64,000 bases of DNA, from assembly GCA_964394405.1 (NCBI GenBank), contig CAYMVY010000001.1, positions 38,546 through 102,545 on the forward strand, read 5' to 3'. This DNA comes from an uncultured Gammaproteobacteria bacterium (lineage in GTDB: Bacteria > Patescibacteriota > Patescibacteriia > Magasanikbacterales > UBA922). The position numbers and the translations under genes were made by a program. This document shows positions 8,374 through 58,302 of this stretch, in pieces. How positions within the stretch are numbered: position 1 is the first letter of the stretch; each line of letters begins with the position of its first letter. Below the pieces are notes generated by a model that saw only the letters and a list, made by a program, of their open reading frames with translations, did no database searches and was not told the origin of the DNA.

Positions 8374-8492
8374 ACCGAAAAAAATACAATTATTCTAATT
8401 GACCTAAGTACTCTAAAATAATACACCATTTGAAATAAGTTAGAATGATTAGAATAATTTTCCCATCCGTTCTATTTATCCACCAAAAAATC

Positions 8493-9331: not shown

Positions 9332-10835
<1,504 letters not shown>

Positions 10836-11299: not shown

Positions 11300-11398
11300 G
11301 TGGTATGGCAAGTCCCAATTGTTCACACATTGGGGATAACTTGATAGAAGGCAAAAGTTAAAAGTAAAAAGTCAAAAGAATAATACCCTCTCTAAAGA

Positions 11399-12136
11399 CT
11401 ACTTACTCTGTTTTTTGCGCCATTCAGCGATTTTTTTGTGATCTCCACTCAGCAGAACCTCAGGCACTTTCCATCCCTTAAAATCTACAGGTTTTGTATA
11501 CTGTGGATACTCAACTTCAATCTCTTGCATTCCACTTTTTACCTTTTCCTTTTTACTTTTTACTTTATTAAAAGTTTCCTCCACCAACGACTCCGCATTC
11601 CCCAATACTCCTGGCACCAATCGAGACACTGCTTCGATAATCGTAAGCGCTCCCAATTCACCACCTGCCAACACATATGGACCAACTGAAATTTCCTCAT
11701 CAATCATATGATCCACGACCCGCTGATCTACTCCTTCGTATCGACCGCAAATCAAAATAAGTTCATCAAGTTTGGCCCAAGATTCGGCAATTGATTGATC
11801 AAACTGTCGTCCACGTGGAGACAATAATACCGTCCGTTTTTTCTTTGCAACCGTTCCAGTTGCCAGTCGTTTGAGTTTAGTTAAACCAGGAGCTTTTTTG
11901 AATGGCAATCCATCAATCGACACCAGTGCCTCATAAATCGGATCTGGCTTCATGAGCATCCCCGCTCCCCCGCCATACGGTGTATCATCCACCGTCTTGT
12001 GTTTGTCATATGTGAAGTCTCGAATATAAATCGCCCGCACATCAATCAATTTCTTTTTTTGCGCACGACCAAGAATCGTCTCATCAGTATATGAAGTAAT
12101 AATGTTTGGAAAAAGTGTGAGTACTGAAAATTTCAT
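11399..12136 (-). CDS. trmD: tRNA (guanine37-N1)-methyltransferase
   Basis: 245 aa with SPOUT/TrmD motifs (LTLFP, DDTPYGGGAGM, ICGRYEGVD, GPYVLAGGE). Confidence 0.9.
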   Translation of the reverse strand: MKFSVLTLFPNIITSYTDETILGRAQKKKLIDVRAIYIRDFTYDKHKTVDDTPYGGGAGMLMKPDPIYEALVSIDGLPFKKAPGLTKLKRLATGTVAKKKRTVLLSPRGRQFDQSIAESWAKLDELILICGRYEGVDQRVVDHMIDEEISVGPYVLAGGELGALTIIEAVSRLVPGVLGNAESLVEETFNKVKSKKEKVKSGMQEIEVEYPQYTKPVDFKGWKVPEVLLSGDHKKIAEWRKKQSK

Positions 12137-15513: not shown

Positions 15514-15989
15514 ATGTTGTCAGCGACCGCGATGAAGTGATTGGAAGAGCCTCTCGAGATGAGATATACAAAAAACTCCTTCCCCACCGTATCGTGCATA
15601 TCTTGATTTTTAATGATAGGCAAGAAATGGCACTACAGCTCCGAAGCAAAATAGCGTCATTCTGTCCTGGTCACTGGTCGACTGCTGTCGGTGGACATGT
15701 GCAATCAGGAGAAAATTATGAGCAAGCAGCGCTCCGTGAATCAGAGGAAGAATTGGGAATAAAAAGTGAGTTGCAACTATTGGGTAGCGATATCTATGAA
15801 GCAAAAAATAGACCAAAAAAATTCCTCAGAACATTTACCACTCAATATAATGGACCATTCAAAACAGAAGAAGGCGCTGTCGAAAAAGTAGAATTTTTTC
15901 CATTAGAAAAGATAAAGCAAATGATTTTAGGTAAAGAAAAATTCCATCCAGAACTTTTGTATATACTTCAAAAATATTTTGTAAACTAA
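15501..15989 (+). CDS. NUDIX hydrolase (second copy)
   Basis: Nudix box GGHVQSGENYEQAALRESEEELGI. The start was chosen at MEFLD, overlapping the previous gene by 13 nt. Confidence 0.75.
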   Translation: MEFLDVVSDRDEVIGRASRDEIYKKLLPHRIVHILIFNDRQEMALQLRSKIASFCPGHWSTAVGGHVQSGENYEQAALRESEEELGIKSELQLLGSDIYEAKNRPKKFLRTFTTQYNGPFKTEEGAVEKVEFFPLEKIKQMILGKEKFHPELLYILQKYFVN

Positions 15990-16018
15990 AACACCCGGCC
16001 ATGGCCGGGTGTTTTTTT
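15988..16018 (+). terminator. Intrinsic terminator
   Basis: aaaacacccggccatggccgggtgttttttt. Confidence 0.7.
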
Positions 16019-17390: not shown

Positions 17391-17420
17391 AAAAATACCC
17401 CGGTAAAGCGGGGTATTTTT
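17391..17420 (+). terminator. Intrinsic terminator (bidirectional; also serves fusA)
   Basis: aaaataccccggtaaagcggggtatttttt. Confidence 0.7.
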
Positions 17421-21686: not shown

Positions 21687-22598
21687 CTATTCTCCCCGCA
21701 TTGGTGGTCGCTTCATTGCATCATCACTCTCCACAATTTGCTCGCATTCTTTCGAACAGGCGCCATGCAGCCGTGCAACACATTCATTGCAGTCGATAAA
21801 TAATTTATTACATTCTTTATTAATACAATTGCGATAGGTATCACAGGTGGTGCCGCATATCGCGCATTTCCCGACAATTTCTTCGGAATCCGTATGGTTC
21901 ACTCGCAAAGCAATACGATCATCAAACGTGAAACATTTACCCTCAAAAAAACCTTCATTACCATATTTCTCCGCATATGTTACAATTCCGCCTTCAAGTT
22001 GATAGACCTGGCTTTTATCAAACCCATAGGCGACAAATAGTGCTGACGCAGGCTCACAGCGAACTCCTCCTGTGCAGTACATTACAATTTTTTTCCCCTT
22101 GAATTGTCCGTAAAAATCCATGACATCTTTCAAATCTCGAAAATATGATACAGGTGGACGGACTGCATTTTTAAAACGACCAATATCATATTCATAGTCA
22201 TTGCGCATATCAATCAATACCATTTCTTCTCCGCGAGTGAGCCATTTGTGAAACGTGTCTCGGTCTACATGTTTCCCGCGTTTAGTCCAATCGATTTGAT
22301 CTTTGATCTCAGTCGTAATAATTTCGTCGCGATGTCGCACACGAAGTTTAGGGAATGGAAGAAAATCAGATGCATGCTCTTTCCAATCAATATTCTTATA
22401 TAATCGATGTTGATCCATGTATGCTTTATAGAGTTCGATACTTTCTTTGGTTCCCCCAATATTTCCATTGATTCCATAATCCCCGATCAAGATTCGCCCT
22501 TTGATATTCAAAGCAACACAAATTTCTTTGTGCATTTCAACTTCTTTTGCGGGATTCTTGATATTTACAATTTTGTAGTACAACAACGTGTGAAACAT
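21687..22598 (-). CDS. trhO: Rhodanese-domain tRNA U34 hydroxylase TrhO (YceA/UPF0176)
   Basis: Rhodanese active site CTGGVRCE plus a C-terminal Cys-rich tail; 303 aa. Confidence 0.75.
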   Translation of the reverse strand: MFHTLLYYKIVNIKNPAKEVEMHKEICVALNIKGRILIGDYGINGNIGGTKESIELYKAYMDQHRLYKNIDWKEHASDFLPFPKLRVRHRDEIITTEIKDQIDWTKRGKHVDRDTFHKWLTRGEEMVLIDMRNDYEYDIGRFKNAVRPPVSYFRDLKDVMDFYGQFKGKKIVMYCTGGVRCEPASALFVAYGFDKSQVYQLEGGIVTYAEKYGNEGFFEGKCFTFDDRIALRVNHTDSEEIVGKCAICGTTCDTYRNCINKECNKLFIDCNECVARLHGACSKECEQIVESDDAMKRPPMRGE

Positions 22599-22600
22599 AT

Positions 22601-22727
22601 TTTAAACTCAAAAGTAAAAACTCAAAGCTTAAAACTGTATCTTAAAACTAAAAACTTAACTTCCCCTGATTTTGAATTTTTAGTTTCAGTTTTACCTTTT
22701 GACATTTAAGTTTTGAATTCTCCTTTG
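22601..22727. repeat. AT-rich MITE-like repeat element, copy 1 (AAAACT array / spacer / AGTTTT array)
   Basis: The left arm has TTAAAACT repeated at about 13-nt phase and the right arm has AGTTTT repeats. The right arm ttttgaatttttagtttcagttttaccttttgacatttaagttttgaattc is about 88% identical to 38486-38536. Confidence 0.6.
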
Positions 22728-22800
22728 TCGGGCTAACACGACTTGAACGTGCGACCTCATGACCCCCAGCCATGCGCTCTACCAACTGAGCTATAGCCCG
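22728..22800 (-). tRNA. tRNA-Pro (anticodon GGG)
   Basis: 73-nt cloverleaf CGGGCTATAGCTCAGTTGGTAGAGCGCATGGCTGGGGGTCATGAGGTCGCACGTTCAAGTCGTGTTAGCCCGA. C1:G72, G37, T-loop TTCAAGT; no encoded CCA. Confidence 0.85.
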
Positions 22801-31398: not shown

Positions 31399-32488
31399 AA
31401 TAGACAAACATCGCATCACCAAAACTATAAAACCGATATTCTTTTTCTACTGCAGCTTTGTAACAATTCAACATAAATTCCCGATCTCCGACAAAAGCAG
31501 ACACAAGCATGAGGAGTGTGGATTTCGGAAGATGAAAATTAGTAATCACTGCATCGACAATGTGAAATTCAAATCCAGGAGTAATAAAAATATTAATATC
31601 GCCGGTATATGCGTGCATTTTTCCTTGATGAAGCAAGGCAACACCTTCAAGTGTTCGTGTAGTCGTAGTCCCAACAGCAATTACTCGCCTCCCTTCTTGT
31701 TTCGCACGATTGATAATTTCTGCAGTTTCTTCTGCCACCTCCACCCATTCGCTATGCATCGTGTGATCTTCCACCCGTTCAGATTTTACCGGCAAAAAAG
31801 TTCCAAGTCCTACATGCAGTGTAACTTCTACAAATTCAACTCCTTTTTGTTTTAATTTTTCAATCAGCTCTGGAGTAAAATGAAAACCAGCAGTCGGAGC
31901 TGCAACAGATCCTTCGGGCTTCGCATATACGGTCTGATAACTCTCAAGCTCATGCGGTTCATCTTTTACATACGGAGGAATAGGAATCGAGCCATACTGA
32001 TTTGCTTTTTTTCGCACCTCTTCTTCGCTATCAGTAAACTGTACCAATATAGTTCCATCTTTCTCTTTAAAAATTACTTCACAATAAAAATCTGGAGCAA
32101 ACCGCACAACCATGCCCGTCTGAATTCGTCGCCCTGGTTTCCCTAATACCTTCCATACTCCACTATTTTCCATTGGACGAACGAGAAATATCTCTACTTC
32201 TTTCTGATTCAATAATGCATGATCTGGAACTCCATCCTGATTCGCATCAGTATTTCCTGCTTCGAGCTTTCCCATCAGTCGCGCTTTAAACACTTTTGAA
32301 TTATTCCAAACCAACACATCACCAGATTTCAAATAATCAACAATATCATAAAAATGACGATCGTCAGTCGTCTTGCTTTTTCGATCAATTACCATCAGTC
32401 GCGAATGATCACGTGGTTCGACTGAATGTTGCGCAATGCGCTCGTCTGGAAGAATGTAATCGAAATCTTTGGTGTGCATAGTATTCAC
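31397..32488 (-). CDS. queA: S-adenosylmethionine:tRNA ribosyltransferase-isomerase
   Basis: 363 aa with QueA fold motifs (DFDYILPDERIAQ, VLVWNNSKVFKARL). Confidence 0.85.
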   Translation of the reverse strand: MNTMHTKDFDYILPDERIAQHSVEPRDHSRLMVIDRKSKTTDDRHFYDIVDYLKSGDVLVWNNSKVFKARLMGKLEAGNTDANQDGVPDHALLNQKEVEIFLVRPMENSGVWKVLGKPGRRIQTGMVVRFAPDFYCEVIFKEKDGTILVQFTDSEEEVRKKANQYGSIPIPPYVKDEPHELESYQTVYAKPEGSVAAPTAGFHFTPELIEKLKQKGVEFVEVTLHVGLGTFLPVKSERVEDHTMHSEWVEVAEETAEIINRAKQEGRRVIAVGTTTTRTLEGVALLHQGKMHAYTGDINIFITPGFEFHIVDAVITNFHLPKSTLLMLVSAFVGDREFMLNCYKAAVEKEYRFYSFGDAMFVY

Positions 32489-32513
32489 ACTCTACAATAC
32501 AAATAATACTTTT

Positions 32514-33854
32514 TCAATCCTTATTTTTAGTCACAAACGCATGTACCGCTGGGTCAGTCCATACATGCTCACGTTTGAGCGGACGACGCAGATGCAGACC
32601 CTCAAACGTAGTACAGCGGGATAATGCGACATATACCTGCCCAGATACAAAAGTGCCACTGCCAATATCAAGTAATACCCGATCAAATGTTTTCCCCTGC
32701 GCTTTGTGAATAGTCACTGCCCACGCAAGCTTCAATGGATATTGAATAAATGATCCAATGGTTTCTGATTCCACCTGTTTGGTCGAAGGATCGAAATAAA
32801 ATCGGTACATATCCCACGTGTACATACCAATCAATACATCATCACCTGAATCGAGAGTGACTTCAATCATTTCGTCTTCACCTTCGACTTTACTAAACCC
32901 TTTTACCACACCCATACTCCCATTATGCCATTTTCCCCACGGATCATTATGCAATACCATGACGCGCGCACCAATCTTTAATTTGAGCTCTGCATCAGTC
33001 GGAAATGCTCCTCGATCAAACTTATGCTCTACTCTACCCGTAAACACGCGTTCTTTCTCTTCAAGCGCCTGTAATTGCCCCTGATTGACCGCAGACGCAA
33101 GTGCATTAGTCGTTGTCACCCATACACCCTCGTACGTACTATGATCAAAATCTTCATCCACACAGCGCCGATTAAGTATCTGCAGTTGTGCCGTAGTAAG
33201 CGTCGTATCTCGTACCGCATTCAACAATGATATAAACTCTTCGTCTGTCTGACGATACATTTTTTCAAGCTCAATAATTTCCAATTCAAATGTTTCTTCT
33301 TCAAGCATTTTCTTCTGTTTATTTCCCCCGCACACATGCGCGGCAAAAAAATATGGTGAATCATATCGTTCAGAAAAAAACTGTTGTTCGCCTCGAGTCA
33401 CTACGGGTGGCAATTGATAGAGGTCACCAATGAGAATCATCTGCACCCCACCAAATGGTTTTCGTTTATCCCTACCCGCTTTCCGGAGGAATATATCAAT
33501 ACAGTCAAATAAGTCAGCTCGAACCATAGAAATCTCATCAATGACAATTGCGTCAAGTTCACGATAAATCTGTTTCTGCTCGTCATCTCCTCGGGGATTC
33601 TTCACCGTGTCAGGCGTAGTCTCTGGAGTAAACCCAAAAAAAGAATGAATAGTCTGCCCGCCCACATTCACCGCAGCAACCCCAGTCGGCGCCAAAACCA
33701 CGATCTTTTTCTTAGTATGATGTCTAAAATAGGTGAGGAGTGTTGACTTACCAGTTCCTGCACGACCAGTAATAAAAAGATTCGTATGGGTGTTCTCCAT
33801 ACGATCCAGGGCCTTCTTGAACTGTGTATTTTGCTCAATCATAGCATTACTCAC
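32514..33854 (-). CDS. Pif1/RecD-like SF1B DNA helicase
   Basis: Walker A ITGRAGTGKSTLL and the Pif1 signature TIHSFFGF; 446 aa. Confidence 0.8.
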   Translation of the reverse strand: MSNAMIEQNTQFKKALDRMENTHTNLFITGRAGTGKSTLLTYFRHHTKKKIVVLAPTGVAAVNVGGQTIHSFFGFTPETTPDTVKNPRGDDEQKQIYRELDAIVIDEISMVRADLFDCIDIFLRKAGRDKRKPFGGVQMILIGDLYQLPPVVTRGEQQFFSERYDSPYFFAAHVCGGNKQKKMLEEETFELEIIELEKMYRQTDEEFISLLNAVRDTTLTTAQLQILNRRCVDEDFDHSTYEGVWVTTTNALASAVNQGQLQALEEKERVFTGRVEHKFDRGAFPTDAELKLKIGARVMVLHNDPWGKWHNGSMGVVKGFSKVEGEDEMIEVTLDSGDDVLIGMYTWDMYRFYFDPSTKQVESETIGSFIQYPLKLAWAVTIHKAQGKTFDRVLLDIGSGTFVSGQVYVALSRCTTFEGLHLRRPLKREHVWTDPAVHAFVTKNKD

Positions 33855-33860
33855 TGTACC

Positions 33861-34433
33861 CTATAAATGATACTTTTTCAATTCTCGTTCACGCACTCGG
33901 TAATCCGGTAATATATGAGAAACTTCTCTCCAAAATTGTGCCGAATGATTATGGTGCCGCAAGTGACAGAGTTCATGTACCACTACATAATCCCGCAAAT
34001 CTTCAGATAAAAAAATAAGCTTATAATTAAAATTCAAATTTTCTTTGGTAGAACAACTCCCCCACCTACTCGACGTATTTTTGATAGAAATCCGTTTGAA
34101 GGTAAATCCATGCAACTGAGCAAAATGCTTTACCCGCTCAGTAATTATTTTTTTTGCTCGGGCTTTATTCGCATGATATGAAAACTTCGGACCAGAAAAT
34201 TGAGATTTGGTTACAGCTTCCAGTTTTTTCAACACTCCCTCAATCCATTCGTGCTTTGATCGTACAAATTTCTCAATAACTGTTTTTGGTACCAGCTTTG
34301 GTGCAGTGACTCGCACTTTGCCTTTGGAGTTTACAGACAACGTGATGCGACGCAACCGTGCGCGTCTGTGTAATGAATATTCCATAAAATTCAATTTGAA
34401 GGGGGACGACGTATCGCCCCCCCTCCCAGTCAT
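33861..34433 (-). CDS. DUF45/YgjP-family zinc metallohydrolase (HExxH)
   Basis: VVHELCHLRHHNH motif. The start may be at 34433 (ATGA overlap with the upstream small ORF) or at the internal MEYSL (34385). Confidence 0.7.
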   Translation of the reverse strand: MTGRGGDTSSPFKLNFMEYSLHRRARLRRITLSVNSKGKVRVTAPKLVPKTVIEKFVRSKHEWIEGVLKKLEAVTKSQFSGPKFSYHANKARAKKIITERVKHFAQLHGFTFKRISIKNTSSRWGSCSTKENLNFNYKLIFLSEDLRDYVVVHELCHLRHHNHSAQFWREVSHILPDYRVRERELKKYHL

Positions 34434-36804: not shown

Positions 36805-37871
36805 AGGTATTGTTCTTTACCATCTTGTTCAAGTTGTGTAAGAAGTTTTTTGATATCCGGCACCTGATCTTTGTGACACACCAGGAGCGCGTCCTTGGTA
36901 TTCACGACAATCATACCCTCGAGCCCGATGACAGTAACGAGTTTATGGGATTCTTCATTGAAGATAAAAGAATCAGTCGAATCTACTTGATACGTATTAC
37001 CAACAGAAACATTGTGTTCGGGAGCGGTATGCAACGCTTCTTTCAAAGCATAGAGCGTACCTGGATCACTCCAATTCATATCAACCGGAAGCACGACTGC
37101 CTCAGATTTATCTATCTTTTCAATAATCGCACTGTCAAATGAGAGTGCAGGAACTGTTGCGTACTCGTGTTGAAGATCACGCTTGCCCGCTACCATCTCT
37201 GACAAAGACACATACAACTCGGGTTGATGTTTTTCATACAGTGAAAGTACAAAATCAATATCAACGACAAAATACCCAGGATTCCAATACCATTCACCAG
37301 ATTCAAACATTTCTATGCATTGTACAAGTTCAGGTCTATATTTCCACCCTTCAAAAGAAAAAACACCTTCTCCAATTTCAGTGCCCATTTTGATCCAACC
37401 CAAATTATGATTGGCAAACCTAGGTTTTTCTGCCAAAAAAATAAAACGATTTTTATGTTCTGCAATCAACTCTTCGGCACGAACGAGGGCAGTGCGAAAA
37501 TGGTCTGGATGATCCATAAAATGATCAGCCCAGAGTAATGCAACCGTACCCGAAATTCCTTTTTGTTTCAGGCGAAGCAAATTCAAAAGCACGGCCGCAG
37601 CCAAATCTCTTCGAGCCGGCTCGCTCATAATATGATCATGAGCAATCTGAGGGAGTTGTTCTTTTACCACATCCACATATCGGGCATTGGTCGAAATATA
37701 GATATTACCCAGCCCTAATGGCAAAACGCGCTCGACAGCCATCTGAAGCGTCGATTGATCATCTTTCAATTTTTCAAACTGTTTGGGCGACCGTGAGCGA
37801 CTAATAGGCCATAATCGGGTACCAGCTCCACCTGCAAAAATAAGAAAATTCATAGATACGTACCTTACCAC
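36801..37871 (-). CDS. Sugar-phosphate nucleotidyltransferase (mannose-1-phosphate guanylyltransferase-like)
   Basis: N-terminal FAGGAGTRLWPISRSRSPKQF nucleotide-binding loop. Confidence 0.8.
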   Translation of the reverse strand: MVRYVSMNFLIFAGGAGTRLWPISRSRSPKQFEKLKDDQSTLQMAVERVLPLGLGNIYISTNARYVDVVKEQLPQIAHDHIMSEPARRDLAAAVLLNLLRLKQKGISGTVALLWADHFMDHPDHFRTALVRAEELIAEHKNRFIFLAEKPRFANHNLGWIKMGTEIGEGVFSFEGWKYRPELVQCIEMFESGEWYWNPGYFVVDIDFVLSLYEKHQPELYVSLSEMVAGKRDLQHEYATVPALSFDSAIIEKIDKSEAVVLPVDMNWSDPGTLYALKEALHTAPEHNVSVGNTYQVDSTDSFIFNEESHKLVTVIGLEGMIVVNTKDALLVCHKDQVPDIKKLLTQLEQDGKEQYL

Positions 37872-38422
37872 AGCCGAATAAAAGGTTCAATAATATAAGA
37901 AATAACCCATGGAAATAGTAGGAGTACCCCATGCGCCAGAATAGCGCCCCCAATAATATCTCTCGGATAATGTACACCTACGTACACACGTGAAAAAGAA
38001 ACGAGACATGCAGCAAAATAAAAAACTATGATCAATGTAACAGGTGACTGTGGCACAAAAAGCATTGCGCCAGCAATACAAAAGGACCCAATTGCATGGT
38101 CTGATGGAAATGATTTCCACGTACCCATCGTGTGAATCAACTGTCTGCTTTCTGGAAATTCAACTTTAGGCCTTCGACGTTTTACAATAAGTGCAATACT
38201 ATAACTCAAAAGCTCGGAAAGTATAAATGATCCAAACATCCACTCGATATATCGGGCAAGCCATACCGAATCCCCACGAATAATTCCATATGCAAATGCA
38301 CTCCCAAGCAAAATAAATACCAAGAATTTGGCAGCAAAAATCATGAATACATCTCGACGTGTATTTTTCCCGAGTGATGAATTGATTTTCAAAAATAATT
38401 TATGACTCCAGGATAATTTCAT
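37865..38422 (-). CDS. PAP2-family phosphatase (undecaprenyl-diphosphatase/PgpB-like)
   Basis: PAP2 motifs KRRRP, PSDH and SRVYVGVHYPRD. Confidence 0.8.
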   Translation of the reverse strand: MKLSWSHKLFLKINSSLGKNTRRDVFMIFAAKFLVFILLGSAFAYGIIRGDSVWLARYIEWMFGSFILSELLSYSIALIVKRRRPKVEFPESRQLIHTMGTWKSFPSDHAIGSFCIAGAMLFVPQSPVTLIIVFYFAACLVSFSRVYVGVHYPRDIIGGAILAHGVLLLFPWVISYIIEPFIRLW

Positions 38423-38548
38423 AAGATAATCTCAAAACGTAAAACTCAAAATTCAAAACTATAACTTAAATTTTAAAACTTTAATGCAGTACTTAATTTT
38501 GAATTTTTAGTTATAGTTTTGCGTTTTGACATTTGAGTTTTGAGTTCA
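38423..38548. repeat. AT-rich MITE-like repeat element, copy 2
   Basis: ctcaaaacgtaaaactcaaaattcaaaactataactt...ttttgaatttttagttatagttttgcgttttgacatttgagttttgag. Same architecture as copy 1 at 22601-22727, to which it is highly similar. Confidence 0.6.
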
Positions 38549-39661
38549 CTAAATACTTCGCGATTTGATAAAACGTAGATACGCCTCTACAAACTCATCC
38601 AACTCTCCGTTCAAAACAGCTTCAGTATCAGGCGTCTCATGTCTCGTACGCACATCTTTGACCATCTTATATGGTTGGAGTACATACGATCTGATCTGAT
38701 TCCCCCATTCAGCGCTTTTATACTCTCCGCGAAGTTTCAATCGTTCCTCCTCTTCCTTTTCTTCTTGAAGCTTGAGCAATTTTGAGAGCAATACTTTCAT
38801 CGCAGTCTCTTTATTCTGCAATTGCGATCGCTCATTCTGACATTGTACCGTAATTCCGGTCGGAATGTGAACAATACGAACTGCAGAATAGGTGGTATTT
38901 ACACTCTGCCCGCCTTTTCCTCCAGACATGAATGTATCGATACGTAAATCCTTAGGGTCAATAGTCACCGCATCAGCACTTTCTACTTCAGGAATTACTT
39001 CAATCAGCGCAAACGACGTATGTCGCATTTGTTCTGCGTCAAACGGTGAAATACGGACCAATCGATGTGTCCCATGTTCAGATTTCAAATGTCCATATGC
39101 ATATCGTCCTTGAACACTAAACGTGACCGATTTGATTCCAGCCTCATTCCCACGCGATTCATCAATCATCGTCGTTGACCAACCTTTCTTCTCACAATAG
39201 CGCATGACCATGCGTAGAAGCATCTCTGCCCAGTCTTGTGCTTCAGTCCCCCCGCTACCCGCGTGAATAGAAACTATTGCCCCCAGCTTGTCGTGCTTCC
39301 CATTCATCAAAACCAAAAATTCCAATTTTTCAAATTTCTTTTCAAGCTCTTCTGTCTTTTTTGCCACATCCATTTCCAAAGTCTCATCTGGTGACTTAGT
39401 CAAATCTTGTGCAAATAAAAAAAGATCTTGAGTCTCTTTCTGAAGTGTTTCCCACGTCTCAATTTCAGACGAAAGACCTTCTCGCTGTTTTGATACCTGA
39501 CCCGCACGTTGTGGATCTGTCCAGAATGCTGGATCCTGCATACTTTGATCCAAATGAGCGACTTCAACTTTCAAGTCATCAATCCGAAGAAGTTTCCACG
39601 TGTCTGTGATTTTGGTATTCAATGTTTCAAGTCGTACGACTACATCTTTTATAACGCTCAT
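38549..39661 (-). CDS. prfB: Peptide chain release factor 2, no programmed frameshift
   Basis: GGQ motif (GGKGGQSVNTT) and RF2-specific SPF motif (RISPFDAEQ). The reading frame is continuous. Confidence 0.88.
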   Translation of the reverse strand: MSVIKDVVVRLETLNTKITDTWKLLRIDDLKVEVAHLDQSMQDPAFWTDPQRAGQVSKQREGLSSEIETWETLQKETQDLFLFAQDLTKSPDETLEMDVAKKTEELEKKFEKLEFLVLMNGKHDKLGAIVSIHAGSGGTEAQDWAEMLLRMVMRYCEKKGWSTTMIDESRGNEAGIKSVTFSVQGRYAYGHLKSEHGTHRLVRISPFDAEQMRHTSFALIEVIPEVESADAVTIDPKDLRIDTFMSGGKGGQSVNTTYSAVRIVHIPTGITVQCQNERSQLQNKETAMKVLLSKLLKLQEEKEEEERLKLRGEYKSAEWGNQIRSYVLQPYKMVKDVRTRHETPDTEAVLNGELDEFVEAYLRFIKSRSI

Positions 39662-43439: not shown

Positions 43440-43471
43440 ACGGCAAAATTGAATTTTTTAGAATAAGTAGG

Positions 43472-44473
43472 TCAATTAGAATAATTTGAAACCCCCATCT
43501 TCTCCAATCTCTTATACCATTCATCTCGATACACTGTACGCCTATCATTCTCATGAAATTTCAAAACTGAATCATTGACTACTACGCGTGTATCTTTCGC
43601 ATGCACAAGACTGTGAATATTCTTCATAATCTTCCTGCGCTGTGGAGCTCGAACGAGATTCTCGAGCCAATTCCCTCGCTTACCCTCGAATAAAGATTCG
43701 ATCATTTGCACTATAGCTTTTTTGGGACTCCGTTTATCAAACGGGATATGGAGGGTGGGTTCAATATACCGAGAATTCAGGGAAAATGGAGAGAGTAATT
43801 CCTGATTCGCCCGAAGAATACTGTCTGAGAGATCATCAGGGTCATATACGGGAATCAAAGTCCAGAGCCAGTATGAAAGATAGACATCGTCCTTAATTTG
43901 AAATTTCGATATATTGAGAGCTCGATCAGCAATATAAAAACTAAGACAGATTCGATCTTTGACTTTTGTATGTGTGCGTCTAATGCCACACAATGAAAGA
44001 GCAATCGTGGTACAGATGCGTGCGGTCCACATATGTCCTGATTTCACGATAATAAACACATCCACATCACTAGTGCGATCAGCTGAATTGAAGGCAAAAG
44101 TATTGCAGACAAATACCGAACGTACAAATGGGATATAGGGCATGAGTCTTGCGGCTCTGGTCAATTTTTTCAACTTCTCATGAATATAGACACTTCGTTC
44201 ACTATGTGTATCCAAGAGATGTTCACGTCCTCGCAGATGCCACATACCATGCGTACGCGCGATATGGGAATCAACAAATTCTCGAGTCTGTAATACAAAT
44301 TCCTGAAAGCTGATTTTGGGTCGAAGTGGCGGACGATAGAGATACTCAAAAAGTTCTCGATCAGTAAGTGGATGATCAAAAATATCAAAAAAGGTAATAG
44401 CCCGGGCAATAGAGCGATAAAGTGCTTCTTCCATATACCCGTCATTGTACCTGAGGTTCATCAATAAAAGCAA
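43472..44473 (-). CDS. Hypothetical protein, possible nucleotidyltransferase fold
   Basis: 333 aa; NSADRTSDVDVFIIV resembles the [GS]x(n)DxD motif of Pol-beta-type nucleotidyltransferases. Confidence 0.35.
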   Translation of the reverse strand: MLLLMNLRYNDGYMEEALYRSIARAITFFDIFDHPLTDRELFEYLYRPPLRPKISFQEFVLQTREFVDSHIARTHGMWHLRGREHLLDTHSERSVYIHEKLKKLTRAARLMPYIPFVRSVFVCNTFAFNSADRTSDVDVFIIVKSGHMWTARICTTIALSLCGIRRTHTKVKDRICLSFYIADRALNISKFQIKDDVYLSYWLWTLIPVYDPDDLSDSILRANQELLSPFSLNSRYIEPTLHIPFDKRSPKKAIVQMIESLFEGKRGNWLENLVRAPQRRKIMKNIHSLVHAKDTRVVVNDSVLKFHENDRRTVYRDEWYKRLEKMGVSNYSN

Positions 44474-46091: not shown

Positions 46092-46111
46092 AATTTTCAA
46101 AACCTCACATT

Positions 46112-46144
46112 AAAACACCCCGTATACACGGGGTGTTTTAATTT
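46112..46144. terminator. Bidirectional intrinsic terminator
   Basis: aaaacaccccgtatacacggggtgttttaattt. Confidence 0.7.
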
Positions 46145-51219: not shown

Positions 51220-51305
51220 AAACAGTAGTTACACTGAAAATTATTCTAATTAACCTAATTGTTCTAACCAATACACTTAATAACTTTTAAATTTTAGAAT
51301 AATTT

Positions 51306-52080: not shown

Positions 52081-52818
52081 TTATTTTTTCTTTGCAGTAA
52101 GCGAAAGAAATTTCGCCTCGAGACTACTGCCGTCTTTTACAAAGTCAGACTTAGGTGCATCAGCAATAATTTTTCCCCCATCAATAATCGCAATTCGTTG
52201 ACACAATTCCTCCACTTCCTCTAGATAATGCGAGGTAAACATAATAGTTTTTCCAGCGGCATTGATTTTTTTCAAATACTCCCACAATTCAAGTCGAAGT
52301 TCTACATCGACCCCCGCAGTCGGCTCATCGAGAATCAAAAGCTTTGGATCATGAATCATAGCACGCGCAAGAAGTACTCGACGCTTCAGTCCACCTGATA
52401 ATTGCATAAATTTCTTATCTTTATGTGGTTCCAAATCCAAAATCTTAAAAAGTTCAGCAATCCTCGTTTTTCGCAAGCCCTTCGCCATGCCATAATATCC
52501 TCCCACATACCACAATATCTTTTCTGGAGTAGCAAAAATGTCCATATTGAATTCTTGCGGAGCTAAGCCTACGAGCATTCGAGCCTCTCTATAATCTTTT
52601 TCAACATCTTTGTCAAAGACTTTAATCGTTCCAGACGTAATTCGACCAATGCCCGTAATACAACTAATCGTCGTAGTTTTACCTGCCCCATTTCTGCCCA
52701 AAAACCCAAAAAACTCACCAGGTTCGACAGTCAAAGAGATACCATCAACTGCGGTAGCTTGCCCGTATTTCTTCGTAAAATTCGTTATTTCAAGCGCGTG
52801 CATAGTAAAAAAGTTCAA
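52081..52818 (-). CDS. ABC transporter ATP-binding protein
   Basis: Walker A GRNGAGKTT, signature LSGGLKRR and Walker B ILDEPTAGVD. Confidence 0.92.
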   Translation of the reverse strand: MNFFTMHALEITNFTKKYGQATAVDGISLTVEPGEFFGFLGRNGAGKTTTISCITGIGRITSGTIKVFDKDVEKDYREARMLVGLAPQEFNMDIFATPEKILWYVGGYYGMAKGLRKTRIAELFKILDLEPHKDKKFMQLSGGLKRRVLLARAMIHDPKLLILDEPTAGVDVELRLELWEYLKKINAAGKTIMFTSHYLEEVEELCQRIAIIDGGKIIADAPKSDFVKDGSSLEAKFLSLTAKKK

Positions 52819-52932
52819 AACTTAAAATTCAAAACTACAATATAAAACTTAAAACGATTCTGTAACGTTATTCCCGCGAAAGCGGGAATCTAAAGTCTTA
52901 GTTTTGAGTTAATATACAGTATACCCCGCCTA
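52819..52932. repeat. AT-rich MITE-like repeat element, copy 3 (diverged, with central GC hairpin ttcccgcgaaagcgggaa)
   Basis: gttcaaaacttaaaattcaaaactacaatataaaacttaaaacg ... agtcttagttttgagtt; same AAAACT/AGTTTT arm architecture as copies 1 and 2. Confidence 0.45.
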
Positions 52933-58049: not shown

Positions 58050-58155
58050 CGTGGCACCATTTCCGGAGCGAGCGAATAAGAGCGCCGAGACTGACGCAAT
58101 ACTGCTACACTTCGGAGTTAAGAGCCACGAAACAAATAATTTTGAGTATCTACAC

Positions 58156-58184
58156 AATCTACCCTATAATATATGTTTTGTCAA
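58156..58184 (-). promoter_or_regulatory. sigma70 promoter (TTGACA-N17-TAGATT) for the E2 ORF
   Basis: The minus strand reads gaTTGACAaaacatatattatagggTAGATTgtg. Confidence 0.45.
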
Positions 58185-58302
58185 TCAGTCTGAAGTATAA
58201 AAACAAAAAATAATTGCTATGATAAGCAATTACTAAGAGAATCGCGACGCACCCCCCTGTAGGAAAAACAGGGAGGCGCGTTGCACAGAAGTCGTGTGTC
58301 GA

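What the first reader, a model, noticed from the sequence alone, without database searches (positions are those of the whole stretch)
22601..22727. MITE-like AT-rich repeat family (copy 1) built from phased AAAACT / AGTTTT arrays
Between trhO and tRNA-Pro lies a 125-bp element. Its left arm has TTAAAACT units at about 13-nt spacing and its right arm has the complementary AGTTTT units, so the arms form an imperfect long inverted repeat. The right arm (ttttgaatttttagtttcagttttaccttttgacatttaagttttgaattc) is about 88% identical to 38486-38536. The left arms also align (ctcaaaa-gtaaaa-ctcaaa...aaaact-ta-cttaaa). A third diverged copy is at 52819-52932. All three sit directly upstream of a minus-strand gene start. 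This is consistent with a small non-autonomous mobile element, or with a recurrent regulatory or iteron-like module.
Basis: seen in the sequence. Interest (0 to 1): 0.55.

Follow-up and report, generated by a model that had tools for sequence, protein, structure and literature searches.

The report
Heptamer-array palindromic insertion element of CPR bacteria
The three AT-rich hairpin repeats are real copies of an apparently undescribed small insertion element, built from a fixed array of 7-base units, that is scattered through ultra-small CPR (Patescibacteria) bacteria both between genes and in frame inside essential genes.

Summary
The repeat unit is 7 nt, not 13. Copy 3 is only a half-copy.

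Each arm is one copy of a discrete ~54-nt module, which I call "E". On its U-rich strand E reads two NNTTTTG heptamers, one phase-breaking hexamer (AGTTGT-like), four heptamers, then AGTTC.

Copies 1 and 2 are inverted dimers (rc(E)-loop-E, about 125 bp). Copy 3 is a single E plus a GC hairpin and a vestigial second arm.

The window comes from a Candidatus Magasanikbacteria genome. A profile built only from metagenome copies finds exactly these five arms in the window. It finds none in 135 kb from close relatives, one of which has a 9-nt empty spacer at the copy-2 site.

The same module occurs at more than 120 metagenome loci and in named genomes of five other CPR lineages. About 40% of copies sit in frame, in all three frames, inside housekeeping genes such as ValRS, ArgRS and GDH. 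The rest lie between genes, and dimers are always A-rich arm first (28 to 0).

No target-site duplication, transposase, promoter, terminator or Rfam family was found.

Best reading: a copy-and-paste selfish element, like the Rickettsia palindromic elements, that is co-transcribed here as a long AU hairpin. How it moves is unknown.

The parts
22603..22657 (-). Copy 1, left arm: one E module on the minus strand (reads A-rich, (YAAAACT)n, on the plus strand). It ends 4 nt before the trhO-like start codon.
   Evidence: nhmmer with the metagenome-only profile: E = 2e-5, model positions 3-57. 76% identical to the copy 2 left arm (D5).
22658..22668 (.). Copy 1, loop between the arms
   Evidence: Sequence and fold.
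22669..22721 (+). Copy 1, right arm: E module reading AATTTTG-AATTTTT-AGTTTC-AGTTTTA-CCTTTTG-ACATTTA-AGTTTTG-AATTC. It ends about 5 nt from the 3' end of tRNA-Pro.
   Evidence: nhmmer E = 1.7e-10, model positions 5-57. 88% identical to the copy 2 right arm (D7).
22727..22800 (-). tRNA-Pro(GGG), the upstream neighbour of copy 1 on the minus strand. A sigma-70-like promoter lies at 22848-22820.
   Evidence: ARAGORN, Rfam, promoter scan.
21687..22598 (-). trhO-like rhodanese gene (UPF0176), the downstream neighbour of copy 1
   Evidence: Pfam PF17773, PF00581 and PF12368.
38427..38483 (-). Copy 2, left arm: E module on the minus strand. It ends 4 nt before the PAP2 start codon (38422).
   Evidence: nhmmer E = 8.8e-7, aligned 38469-38427, envelope to 38483. 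Inverted repeat I1.
38484..38494 (.). Copy 2, loop
   Evidence: Sequence and fold.
38495..38549 (+). Copy 2, right arm: E module reading AATTTTG-AATTTTT-AGTTAT-AGTTTTG-CGTTTTG-ACATTTG-AGTTTTG-AGTTC. It abuts the stop codon of prfB (RF-2).
   Evidence: nhmmer E = 2.8e-12, model positions 4-58. 92% identical to the right arm of the metagenome dimer L183.
38549..39661 (-). prfB (release factor 2), the upstream neighbour of copy 2. PAP2 phosphatase (37865-38422, minus strand) is the downstream neighbour.
   Evidence: Pfam. Homologues are named RF-2 of Candidatus Magasanikbacteria.
52811..52859 (-). Copy 3: a single E module on the minus strand. Its U-rich strand is the mRNA sense strand, and it ends about 8 nt before the ATG (52803) of the ABC-transporter ATPase.
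   Evidence: nhmmer E = 0.02, aligned 52840-52811, envelope 52859-52801. 85% identical to the copy 2 left arm over 39 nt (D2).
52870..52889 (.). GC-rich hairpin ATTCCCGCGAAAGCGGGAAT, sitting where the loop of a dimer would be
   Evidence: Sequence and fold. Some metagenome dimers, such as L162 and L229, also carry extra sequence in their loops that looks like a small GC-rich hairpin; I judged this by eye and did not fold them.
52894..52910 (+). Vestigial right arm (AGTCTTAGTTTTGAGTT)
   Evidence: nhmmer E = 2.6, not significant on its own. It pairs with 52815-52826 in the fold.

Best explanation
The three loci are copies of a CPR-wide family of miniature insertion elements.

Anatomy (shown). 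The basic module, E, is about 54 nt. On its U-rich strand it reads two NNTTTTG heptamers, one hexamer (A-R-T-T-N-Y), four heptamers, then AGTTC. The complementary A-rich strand of the consensus carries no stop codon. The intergenic form is an imperfect palindrome of about 115-130 bp. It consists of two E modules with their two-heptamer ends facing the loop and their AGTTC ends pointing outward, so either strand reads A-rich arm, loop, U-rich arm.

Spread (inferred). The element spreads by copy-and-paste using machinery supplied in trans, which is not identified. The route could be transposition-like insertion, or template switching or gene conversion seeded at A/T tracts. Copies survive where they do no harm. 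In protein loops only single modules with the A-rich strand as sense are tolerated. Between genes they fill very short spacers.

In this window (context shown, effect inferred). Two dimers and one half-element fill three spacers between co-directional minus-strand genes: tRNA-Pro to trhO, prfB to PAP2, and C26 peptidase to ABC ATPase. The scan finds no sigma-70-like promoter within copy 1 or copy 2 or between them and the downstream start codon; at copy 3 it reports one weak minus-strand match (9 of 12) overlapping the element. They are therefore most likely transcribed inside polycistronic RNAs, where the dimers would fold into long AU-rich hairpins (-27 to -37 kcal/mol). Any effect, such as blocking exonucleases or acting as a processing site, would be secondary and is not shown.
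For: Discrete architecture, not a free-length repeat:
- Among 111 distinct metagenome copies, the number of heptamers after the hexamer peaks sharply at 4 (61 copies), although the search pattern required only 2. The commonest layout is 2 + hexamer + 4.
- All five window arms fit a profile built without them.

Dispersal:
- At least 120 metagenome stretches match the 26-nt signature.
- Among named genomes, the five best and clearest full-length matches are all CPR: Daviesbacteria, Moraniibacteriota, Saccharibacteria, Peregrinibacteria and a Patescibacteria MAG. About 100 perfect (AGTTTTG)n arrays in other phyla lack the hexamer.
- Host genes place further copies in Parcubacteria/Nealsonbacteria and Levybacteria.

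Insertion in genes:
- 39 of 40 in-ORF copies have the A-rich strand as sense.
- All three reading frames are used: 23, 9 and 8 copies.
- Hosts include GDH, which aligns full length to PDB 1gtm at E = 1e-129 with the E-coded peptide in a gapped loop, Fpg, a ValRS carrying three E-like inserts, ArgRS, TopA, RecJ and Tgt.
- In an AlphaFold model of the Levybacteria adenosyltransferase, the insert forms the lower-confidence tip of a helical hairpin.

Presence and absence:
- The prfB-PAP2 spacer is 9 nt in relative L124. Other relatives carry unrelated sequence there.
- There are no E hits in 135 kb of relatives.
- ValRS relatives at 86% identity lack the E at one loop.

The dimer behaves as a unit:
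- Polarity is strict: 28 dimers are rc(E)-E and none is E-rc(E).
- Window right arms are 88% identical to each other and left arms 80%, whereas left and right arms of the same copy are only 70-80% alike.
- Copy 2 is 88% identical over both arms to a dimer in an unrelated gene context, L183.

Against a dedicated signal:
- No promoter or terminator was found within copies 1 and 2; copy 3 has only one weak promoter-like match (9 of 12) on the gene strand.
- No Rfam family matches.
- Canonical promoters and terminators exist elsewhere in the window (D3 and D9).
Against: - No target-site duplication, and no transposase or other mobilising gene was identified.
- Only 64 kb of this genome could be read, so the copy number per genome is unknown.
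- In ValRS, E stands in place of 24 nt rather than being a clean insertion. In GDH and the adenosyltransferase the net length gain is smaller than E. This fits conversion or template switching better than cut-and-paste transposition.
- At some protein loops, relatives carry different heptanucleotide-coded repeats, so part of the pattern could be array turnover in place.
- Single intergenic copies are biased towards having the U-rich strand as mRNA sense: 41 against 15, often ending 5-21 nt before a start codon. This hints at selection or function.
- The metagenome loci carry no taxonomic labels.
Confidence: 0.62

Rival explanations
1. The elements are selected cis-acting RNA or DNA modules. 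As intercistronic hairpins they would stabilise, process or partly terminate the operon transcript. As U-rich leaders they would promote Shine-Dalgarno-independent translation of the downstream gene. Their dispersal would then be secondary.
For: - Stable hairpins lie in transcribed spacers.
- Single intergenic copies favour the U-rich strand as sense (41 against 15). Their 3' end lies 5-21 nt from the start codon in 16 of 26 cases.
- This genome almost lacks Shine-Dalgarno sites: 4 of 67 genes have one. An AU-rich leader could therefore matter.
- The sequence is about 80-90% conserved across deep CPR lineages.
Against: - The same module lies inside ORFs in all three frames.
- Dimers occur in both orientations relative to the flanking genes: 13 against 8, plus the two in the window.
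- Close relatives manage with a 9-nt spacer or unrelated sequence at the same site.
- The arms of a dimer are no more complementary to each other than to arms of other dimers (75% against 77%).
- The consensus fold pairs only the invariant CAAAA/UUUUG blocks, with a negligible covariation term of -0.23 kcal/mol.
- There is no U-tract terminator, and canonical terminators exist elsewhere in the window (D9).
Confidence: 0.15
2. There is no mobility in the transposon sense. Heptanucleotide simple-sequence arrays arise and turn over in place by polymerase slippage. Ectopic gene conversion or template switching between arrays then makes them all resemble the E layout.
For: - Over-representation of heptameric repeats in bacteria is documented (PMC4692102).
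- (AGTTTTG)n arrays are common in many phyla.
- Orthologous protein loops carry different 7-aa (21-nt) periodic repeats in relatives.
- E replaces 24 nt in ValRS, and no target-site duplication is found.
- The outer units of E are more degenerate than its core.
Against: - The architecture is fixed (mode 2 + hexamer + 4), with the same hexamer at unrelated loci and in different phylum-level lineages.
- The empty orthologous site is a 9-nt spacer with no pre-existing array.
- Dimer polarity is strict, 28 to 0, which conversion alone does not predict.
Confidence: 0.15
3. E is a recognition signal for a CPR-wide DNA transaction, for example an uptake sequence for natural competence. This would be analogous to Neisseria DUS and Haemophilus USS, which also occur inside genes and as inverted pairs between genes.
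For: - E occurs in genes in all frames and as inverted pairs between genes.
- The sequence is conserved across CPR lineages.
- Natural competence of Saccharibacteria is reported (abstract of PMC10187176, seen).
Against: - Density is low: 5 arms in 64 kb, and none in 135 kb of relatives. From my own knowledge, uptake sequences occur about once per kb.
- At 54 nt the module is much longer than known uptake signals.
- Its distribution is patchy.
Confidence: 0.04
4. The A-rich strand of the right arm encodes a small lysine-rich peptide that is the functional product: MSKGKTETKNSK... in copy 1 and MSKRKTITKNSKL... in copy 2.
For: - An ATG, created by the variant unit ACATTTG, sits at the same position in both window dimers and in many metagenome copies.
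- In L224 an E-borne ATG appears to serve as the start of a LeuRS-like ORF.
Against: - Most copies lack the ATG. The Daviesbacteria copy has ATT there.
- The ORFs end at variable points in the loop or the U-rich arm.
- All three frames are read when E lies inside genes.
- Nothing indicates independent translation.
Confidence: 0.02

Closest known systems
Rickettsia palindromic elements (RPE)
   Same: - Short palindromic repeats in a reduced-genome, host-dependent bacterial group.
- Found between genes and, unusually often, in frame inside unrelated housekeeping genes, where they add a peptide segment compatible with the fold (PMC10969869).
- No known autonomous partner.
   Different: - RPEs are about 150 bp, and each family encodes a conserved peptide in one frame.
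- E is about 54 nt, built from degenerate heptamers, and read in all three frames.
- Only half-elements enter genes; the palindromic form is strictly intergenic.
- The host group is CPR rather than Rickettsia.
- Sequence similarity to RPEs was not tested.
ERIC/IRU, Correia and other MITE-like intergenic palindromes
   Same: - Imperfect palindromes of about 120-130 bp with long terminal inverted arms.
- They lie in transcribed intergenic spacers.
- Presence varies between relatives.
   Different: - From my own knowledge, classical MITEs have target-site duplications and a related IS. Neither was found here.
- The arms here have an internal 7-nt periodicity.
- Single arms are the commonest form.
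Heptanucleotide tandem repeats (cyanobacterial STRR; Xanthomonas and Nostoc GGGAATC-type repeats)
   Same: - The 7-nt unit.
- Intergenic location.
- Occasional inverted arrangement giving stem-loops (PMC4692102).
- Perfect (AGTTTTG)n arrays occur in cyanobacteria and other phyla.
   Different: - Those arrays vary in length and are near-perfect.
- E has a fixed length, degenerate units and a phase-breaking hexamer.
- E is copied as a whole between unrelated loci.
Small dispersed repeats (SDR) of Nostoc (Elhai et al. 2008, recalled from memory, not read here)
   Same: - Very small (tens of nt) dispersed repeats.
- No coding capacity and no known mobilisation mechanism.
- Associated with heptameric repeat arrays.
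   Different: - SDRs are 21-27 nt and confined to cyanobacteria.
- As far as I recall, they are not reported as in-frame inserts in housekeeping proteins.
- This comparison was not tested here.
REP/BIME elements mobilised by RAYT transposases
   Same: - Short extragenic palindromic repeats.
- They often occur as inverted pairs between co-directional genes.
- They can stabilise upstream mRNA.
   Different: - REPs are extragenic by definition and GC-rich.
- They have a conserved 5' tetranucleotide and are linked to a RAYT gene.
- E occurs inside ORFs, and no RAYT gene was seen.

Membership tests
Classical MITE | Short, non-coding, with terminal inverted repeats | tested here: met
   Dimers are 104-157 bp. 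Their termini read AACTCAAAAC...GTTTTGAGTT and the arms are about 54 nt.
Classical MITE | Target-site duplication flanking the element | tested here: not met
   For 21 dimers the best flanking direct repeat averages 1.81 nt, against 1.87 nt in shuffled-pair controls. There is also none at the ValRS junctions.
Classical MITE | A related autonomous IS or transposase sharing the same ends | not testable with these tools
   None of the ten neighbouring genes scanned is a transposase. The rest of the genome could not be fetched.
Classical MITE | Many dispersed copies with presence/absence differences between relatives | tested here: met
   At least 120 metagenome loci. The orthologous site is empty or different in relatives. 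There are 0 hits in 135 kb of relatives.
Rickettsia palindromic elements (RPE-like behaviour) | In-frame insertion in unrelated housekeeping genes, compatible with the protein fold | tested here: met
   40 distinct copies lie in open frames of at least 200 aa. The GDH alignment and the adenosyltransferase model place the insert in a loop or helix tip.
Rickettsia palindromic elements (family membership) | Sequence similarity to an RPE family, and a Rickettsia host | not tested
The host here is CPR, so membership is not claimed.
Heptanucleotide simple-sequence repeat (STRR-type) | Head-to-tail 7-nt units with a variable number of copies | tested here: not met
   The units are 7 nt, but the array length is fixed (mode of 4 units after a 6-nt unit) and the units are degenerate.
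REP/BIME | Strictly extragenic, and associated with a RAYT gene | tested here: not met
   About 40% of copies lie inside ORFs. No RAYT gene was seen next to the window copies.
Intrinsic terminator | GC-rich stem followed by a U tract | tested here: not met
   The scan finds no terminator at any of the three elements. Canonical terminators occur elsewhere in the window (D9).
Iterons / replication origin | Direct repeats of about 17-22 bp next to a rep gene or DnaA boxes | tested here: not met
   The period is 7 nt and the arrangement is inverted. Copies lie inside ORFs, and no rep gene is among the neighbours.
DNA uptake sequence | Very high genomic density (about one per kb) throughout a lineage | tested here: not met
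   5 arms in 64 kb, and 0 in 135 kb of relatives.

The most novel reading that the evidence does not exclude
E is not merely junk. It would be the substrate or recognition sequence of a conserved, CPR-specific DNA transaction: a dedicated mobilising enzyme, or the competence and recombination machinery. This 'coding-compatible' selfish DNA, whose consensus A-rich strand has no stop codon, would then have repeatedly added lysine/threonine/glutamine-rich loops to essential proteins, and hairpins to operons, across the whole radiation. It could explain part of the lineage-specific insertions typical of CPR proteins.
Probability: 0.12. Interest if true: 0.85.

Novelty: new variant of a known kind. 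Interest (0 to 1): 0.62.

Why it matters
CPR/Patescibacteria make up a large share of bacterial diversity. They have tiny genomes thought to be poor in mobile DNA. I found no paper in the searched library that describes MITE-, REP- or RPE-like repeats in them.

If this holds, it has several consequences:
- A 54-nt module shared at about 80-90% identity by lineages as distant as Saccharibacteria, Peregrinibacteria, Microgenomates and Parcubacteria gives a marker for gene flow or for a conserved mobilising activity.
- It explains some odd low-complexity loops in essential CPR proteins.
- It is a practical cause of assembly breaks: one Logan contig ends inside copy 2.
- It links the long-noted excess of heptamer repeats in bacteria to a dispersing element.

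Tried and rejected
- **Rfam.** No family matched at gathering thresholds over the whole window. At permissive E-values on copies 1 and 2, only far sub-threshold plant miRNA-precursor hairpins appeared.
- **Promoter and terminator scans.** Nothing was found inside copies 1 and 2; copy 3 has only one weak promoter-like match on the gene strand.
- **Leaderless-promoter reading of the TTGAC-like boxes.** Rejected by eye, because the spacing to any -10 box and to the ATG does not fit.
- **Target-site duplications.** None found.
- **RNA covariation.** The consensus structure pairs only invariant blocks, and arm complementarity within a dimer is no better than between dimers.
- **A fourth copy at 11354-11383 / 11537-11566 (I8).** Rejected. 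One arm is inside an ORF and nhmmer gives E = 1.
- **Viral contigs.** Only 4 matches in 2.9 million contigs, which is uninformative.
- **DGR-style adenine mutagenesis as the source of unit variation.** Rejected. The A runs are the invariant positions.
- **Small-ORF reading.** Considered unlikely (see rival explanations).

Full report
**1. What is in the window**

The three sites were read directly.
- The window has about 42% G+C.
- It carries a lone 16S rRNA gene and two tRNA genes.
- Its release factor 2 is 100% identical to a protein on a 597-kb NCBI contig. The nearest named homologues are Candidatus Magasanikbacteria, so the source is a CPR (Patescibacteria) genome.

The three elements lie in spacers between co-directional minus-strand genes:
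- tRNA-Pro(GGG) to a trhO-like rhodanese gene.
- prfB to a PAP2 phosphatase.
- A C26 peptidase to an ABC-transporter ATPase.

**2. Checking the observation**

- Right arms: 88% over 52 nt (22669-22720 against 38496-38547).
- Left arms: 76% over 62 nt.
- A 39-nt block is shared by all three loci.
- The copy 2 arms are 81% complementary.

These are more than chance:
- A right-arm 20-mer gives 4 matches against 0.06 expected.
- As single strands the sequences fold into long hairpins. Copy 2 reaches -33.5 and -36.9 kcal/mol (z = -6.1 and -7.2). Copy 1 reaches -26.7 and -23.4 kcal/mol (z = -2.65 and -3.9).

Two corrections are needed:
- The underlying period is 7 nt ((Y)AAAACT on one arm, AGTTTTG on the other).
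- Copy 3 has only one arm, followed by a GC hairpin and a vestige of the second arm.

**3. The module E**

A degenerate heptamer pattern was scanned against one genome per species. It hit at least 119 stretches in many phyla.
- Most hits were perfect (AGTTTTG)n arrays in cyanobacteria, Bacteroidota, Chloroflexi, Verrucomicrobia and others.
- The window arms share a feature those arrays lack: a 6-nt unit (AGTTAT, AGTTTC and similar) that breaks the phase, preceded by two units and followed by four.
- Immediately upstream of the pattern match, and so not imposed by the search, this hexamer was present only in CPR genomes: Moraniibacteriota, Saccharibacteria, Peregrinibacteria, Daviesbacteria and a Patescibacteria MAG. 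One doubtful Omnitrophota case was also flagged.

A 26-nt signature including the hexamer was then scanned against metagenome contigs.
- Shuffles of the window give 0.00 chance matches.

The aligned copies give this consensus..aA.TTTT.A.TTTTgAGTTgTAGTTTTGA.TTTTGA.tTTTgAgTTTTgA.TTtt.

The number of heptamers after the hexamer peaks at four, in 61 of 111 copies, although the pattern required only two. The commonest layout is two units, the hexamer, then four units. E is therefore a discrete module of about 54 nt, not a free-length microsatellite.

**4. The window copies in these terms**

An nhmmer profile built only from metagenome copies finds exactly five arms in the 64-kb window, and nothing else significant:

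| Coordinates | Strand | E-value |
|---|---|---|
| 38495-38549 | + | 2.8e-12 |
| 22669-22721 | + | 1.7e-10 |
| 38469-38427 | - | 8.8e-7 |
| 22657-22603 | - | 2e-5 |
| 52840-52811 | - | 0.02 |

Copies 1 and 2 are inverted dimers, rc(E)-loop-E. Copy 3 is a single E.

The same profile gives no hit in 135 kb from Magasanikbacteria relatives. This is a natural negative control with the same base composition.

**5. Where E sits elsewhere**

Inside genes:
- Of the strong metagenome copies, 39 lie inside long ORFs with the A-rich strand as sense, and only one with the U-rich strand as sense.
- The consensus A-rich strand has no stop codon in any frame. The U-rich strand has TGA in every frame.
- All three reading frames are used, giving KTTTQN, QNYNSK or SKLQLK peptides in 23, 9 and 8 distinct cases. 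What is conserved is therefore the DNA, not a peptide.

The host genes are ordinary housekeeping genes:
- A glutamate dehydrogenase aligns end to end with PDB 1gtm (E = 1e-129), with the E-coded peptide in a gapped loop.
- Fpg/MutM.
- A Parcubacteria ValRS with three E-like inserts.
- ArgRS, TopA, RecJ, Tgt, MiaA and others, judged by conserved motifs.
- A Levybacteria cobalamin adenosyltransferase. In its AlphaFold model the insert forms the lower-confidence tip of the first helical hairpin.

Between genes:
- 28 of 98 strong copies have an inverted partner upstream and none has one downstream. The dimer is strictly polar, with the AGTTC ends outward.
- Dimers lie mostly between co-directional genes, in either orientation (13 and 8), and fill the spacer from stop codon to start codon.
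- Single intergenic copies prefer the U-rich strand as mRNA sense (41 against 15). They often end 5-21 nt before a start codon.

**6. Gain and loss**

The prfB-PAP2 gene order is conserved in relatives sharing 78-89% RF-2 identity. The spacer differs:
- 9 nt in L124.
- In L128 a pterin-binding-domain gene (Pfam PF00809) lies between prfB and PAP2, with about 9 nt on either side.
- 64-95 nt of unrelated hairpins or 9-mer arrays in the others.

At a ValRS loop:
- The closest relatives (86% identity) have 24 nt where the E-bearing gene has a 54-nt E.
- The junctions show no duplication.
- Other relatives carry different 7-aa periodic repeats there.

The Levybacteria adenosyltransferase shows the same pattern, with the E-coded segment inherited across many orthologues.

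No target-site duplication flanks 21 dimers.

**7. Is the hairpin selected as RNA?**

The evidence is against it.
- In an alignment of 21 dimers, the consensus fold pairs only the invariant CAAAA/UUUUG blocks. The covariation term is negligible, at -0.23 kcal/mol.
- The arms of one dimer are no more alike than arms of different dimers (75% against 77%).
- The two window dimers match arm for arm (88% and 80%) better than either matches its own partner (70-80%).
- Copy 2 is 88% identical over both arms to a dimer in an unrelated gene context.

The dimer therefore looks like a unit of propagation rather than a structure maintained by compensatory change.

**8. Function in this window**

- The scan reports no sigma-70-like promoter and no terminator within copy 1 or copy 2; at copy 3 it reports weak promoter-like matches (9 of 12), one of them on the gene strand inside the element.
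- There is no Rfam family.
- The genome does have recognisable promoters (TTGAAA-17-TAnAGT) and canonical bidirectional terminators elsewhere (D3 and D9).
- tRNA-Pro has its own promoter upstream.
- Only 4 of 67 genes have a core Shine-Dalgarno motif. The lack of one after the elements is therefore normal here.

The elements are therefore most likely co-transcribed within operons, where the dimers would form long AU hairpins. An effect on mRNA stability or processing is plausible by analogy with REP and ERIC elements, but it is not shown.

**9. Comparison with known elements and novelty**

- In behaviour the closest parallel is the Rickettsia palindromic elements, which also enter housekeeping genes in frame (PMC10969869).
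- In composition it is closest to heptanucleotide repeats, whose excess in bacteria is documented (PMC4692102).
- It fails the MITE criterion of a target-site duplication, the REP criterion of being extragenic, and the microsatellite criterion of variable length.
- Searches of the paper library found no description of such repeats in CPR bacteria.

I file it as a new variant of a known kind: small palindromic, coding-tolerant selfish repeats. The mechanism of spread is unresolved. It could be transposition-like, or template switching or gene conversion.

Noticed in passing
window 8388-8418, 8428-8459, 43447-43487, 51238-51278: A second intergenic repeat family, AATTATTCTAATTGACCTAAGTACTCTAAAA, at 83-90% identity, containing repeated TTAGAATAA. 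It occurs once as an inverted pair downstream of the 16S rRNA gene, and twice in spacers between minus-strand genes, in both orientations.
   Followed up: partly
window 32484-32518, 33848-33882, 58151-58185: A conserved promoter-like block on the minus strand (TTGAAA, 17 nt, TAnAGT) immediately before gene starts. It shows what promoters look like in this genome (D3 and D18).
   Followed up: no
window 15987-16015, 17391-17419, 46111-46139: Canonical bidirectional intrinsic terminators (AAAACACCCGG...CCGGGTGTTTT). The genome therefore does not rely on the AU hairpins for termination (D9).
   Followed up: no
window, all 67 ORFs of at least 100 aa: Only 4 of 67 genes have a core Shine-Dalgarno motif upstream, so translation initiation here is largely SD-independent.
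   Followed up: partly
window 9332-10835 (minus strand): The 16S rRNA gene stands alone. No 23S or 5S gene is adjacent.
   Followed up: no
L007, L015, L103-L106 (genome contigs): In non-CPR phyla (Deltaproteobacteria, Saprospiraceae, Abditibacteriaceae, Geobacteraceae), perfect (AGTTTTG)n arrays form hairpins with (CAAAACT)n, with the U-rich arm first. This is the opposite polarity to the CPR dimers, and the flanks are often GC-rich. Other heptamer units (GGTTCAG, GGGTTTG, GGGCAAA) occur nearby.
   Followed up: no
L118:560-700 (Saccharibacteria MAG): A heptamer-array hairpin without the hexamer lies at the start of an insertion. By eye, that insertion interrupts a conserved 23S rRNA segment after GGTACGCGAGCTGGGTTCAGA. 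I did not confirm the rRNA with Rfam.
   Followed up: no
L122:11108-11205, L129:1758-1833, L091 about 2640-2720: Other short-period arrays in CPR spacers: 9-mers of the type NNNYTAAGC at the prfB-PAP2 site of relatives, and NNNCTTAAG arrays next to the Daviesbacteria E copy.
   Followed up: no
L224 about 2421-2500: An E copy with the ACATTTG-type variant unit appears to provide the ATG start codon and the first ~15 residues (MSKVKTTTQNSKLKS) of a LeuRS-like ORF.
   Followed up: partly
P0121-P0240 (ValRS) and P0241-P0330 (adenosyltransferase) alignments: At the loops that carry E, orthologues hold other 7-aa periodic peptides, such as SEIRNPK, LKPKTYN and RIKDKGL. I infer that these are encoded by different heptanucleotide arrays, which would suggest array turnover at fixed hot spots; no DNA was read for them.
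   Followed up: partly
L002:1-116 (Logan SRR12404947 contig): A short-read contig of the same strain ends inside copy 2. This fits an assembly break at a repeated or palindromic sequence.
   Followed up: no
L122:17063-20917 and L123:9232-13086: A relative's locus carries a Cas12a (Cpf1)-like gene followed by cas4, about 6 kb downstream of the prfB-PAP2 region.
   Followed up: no
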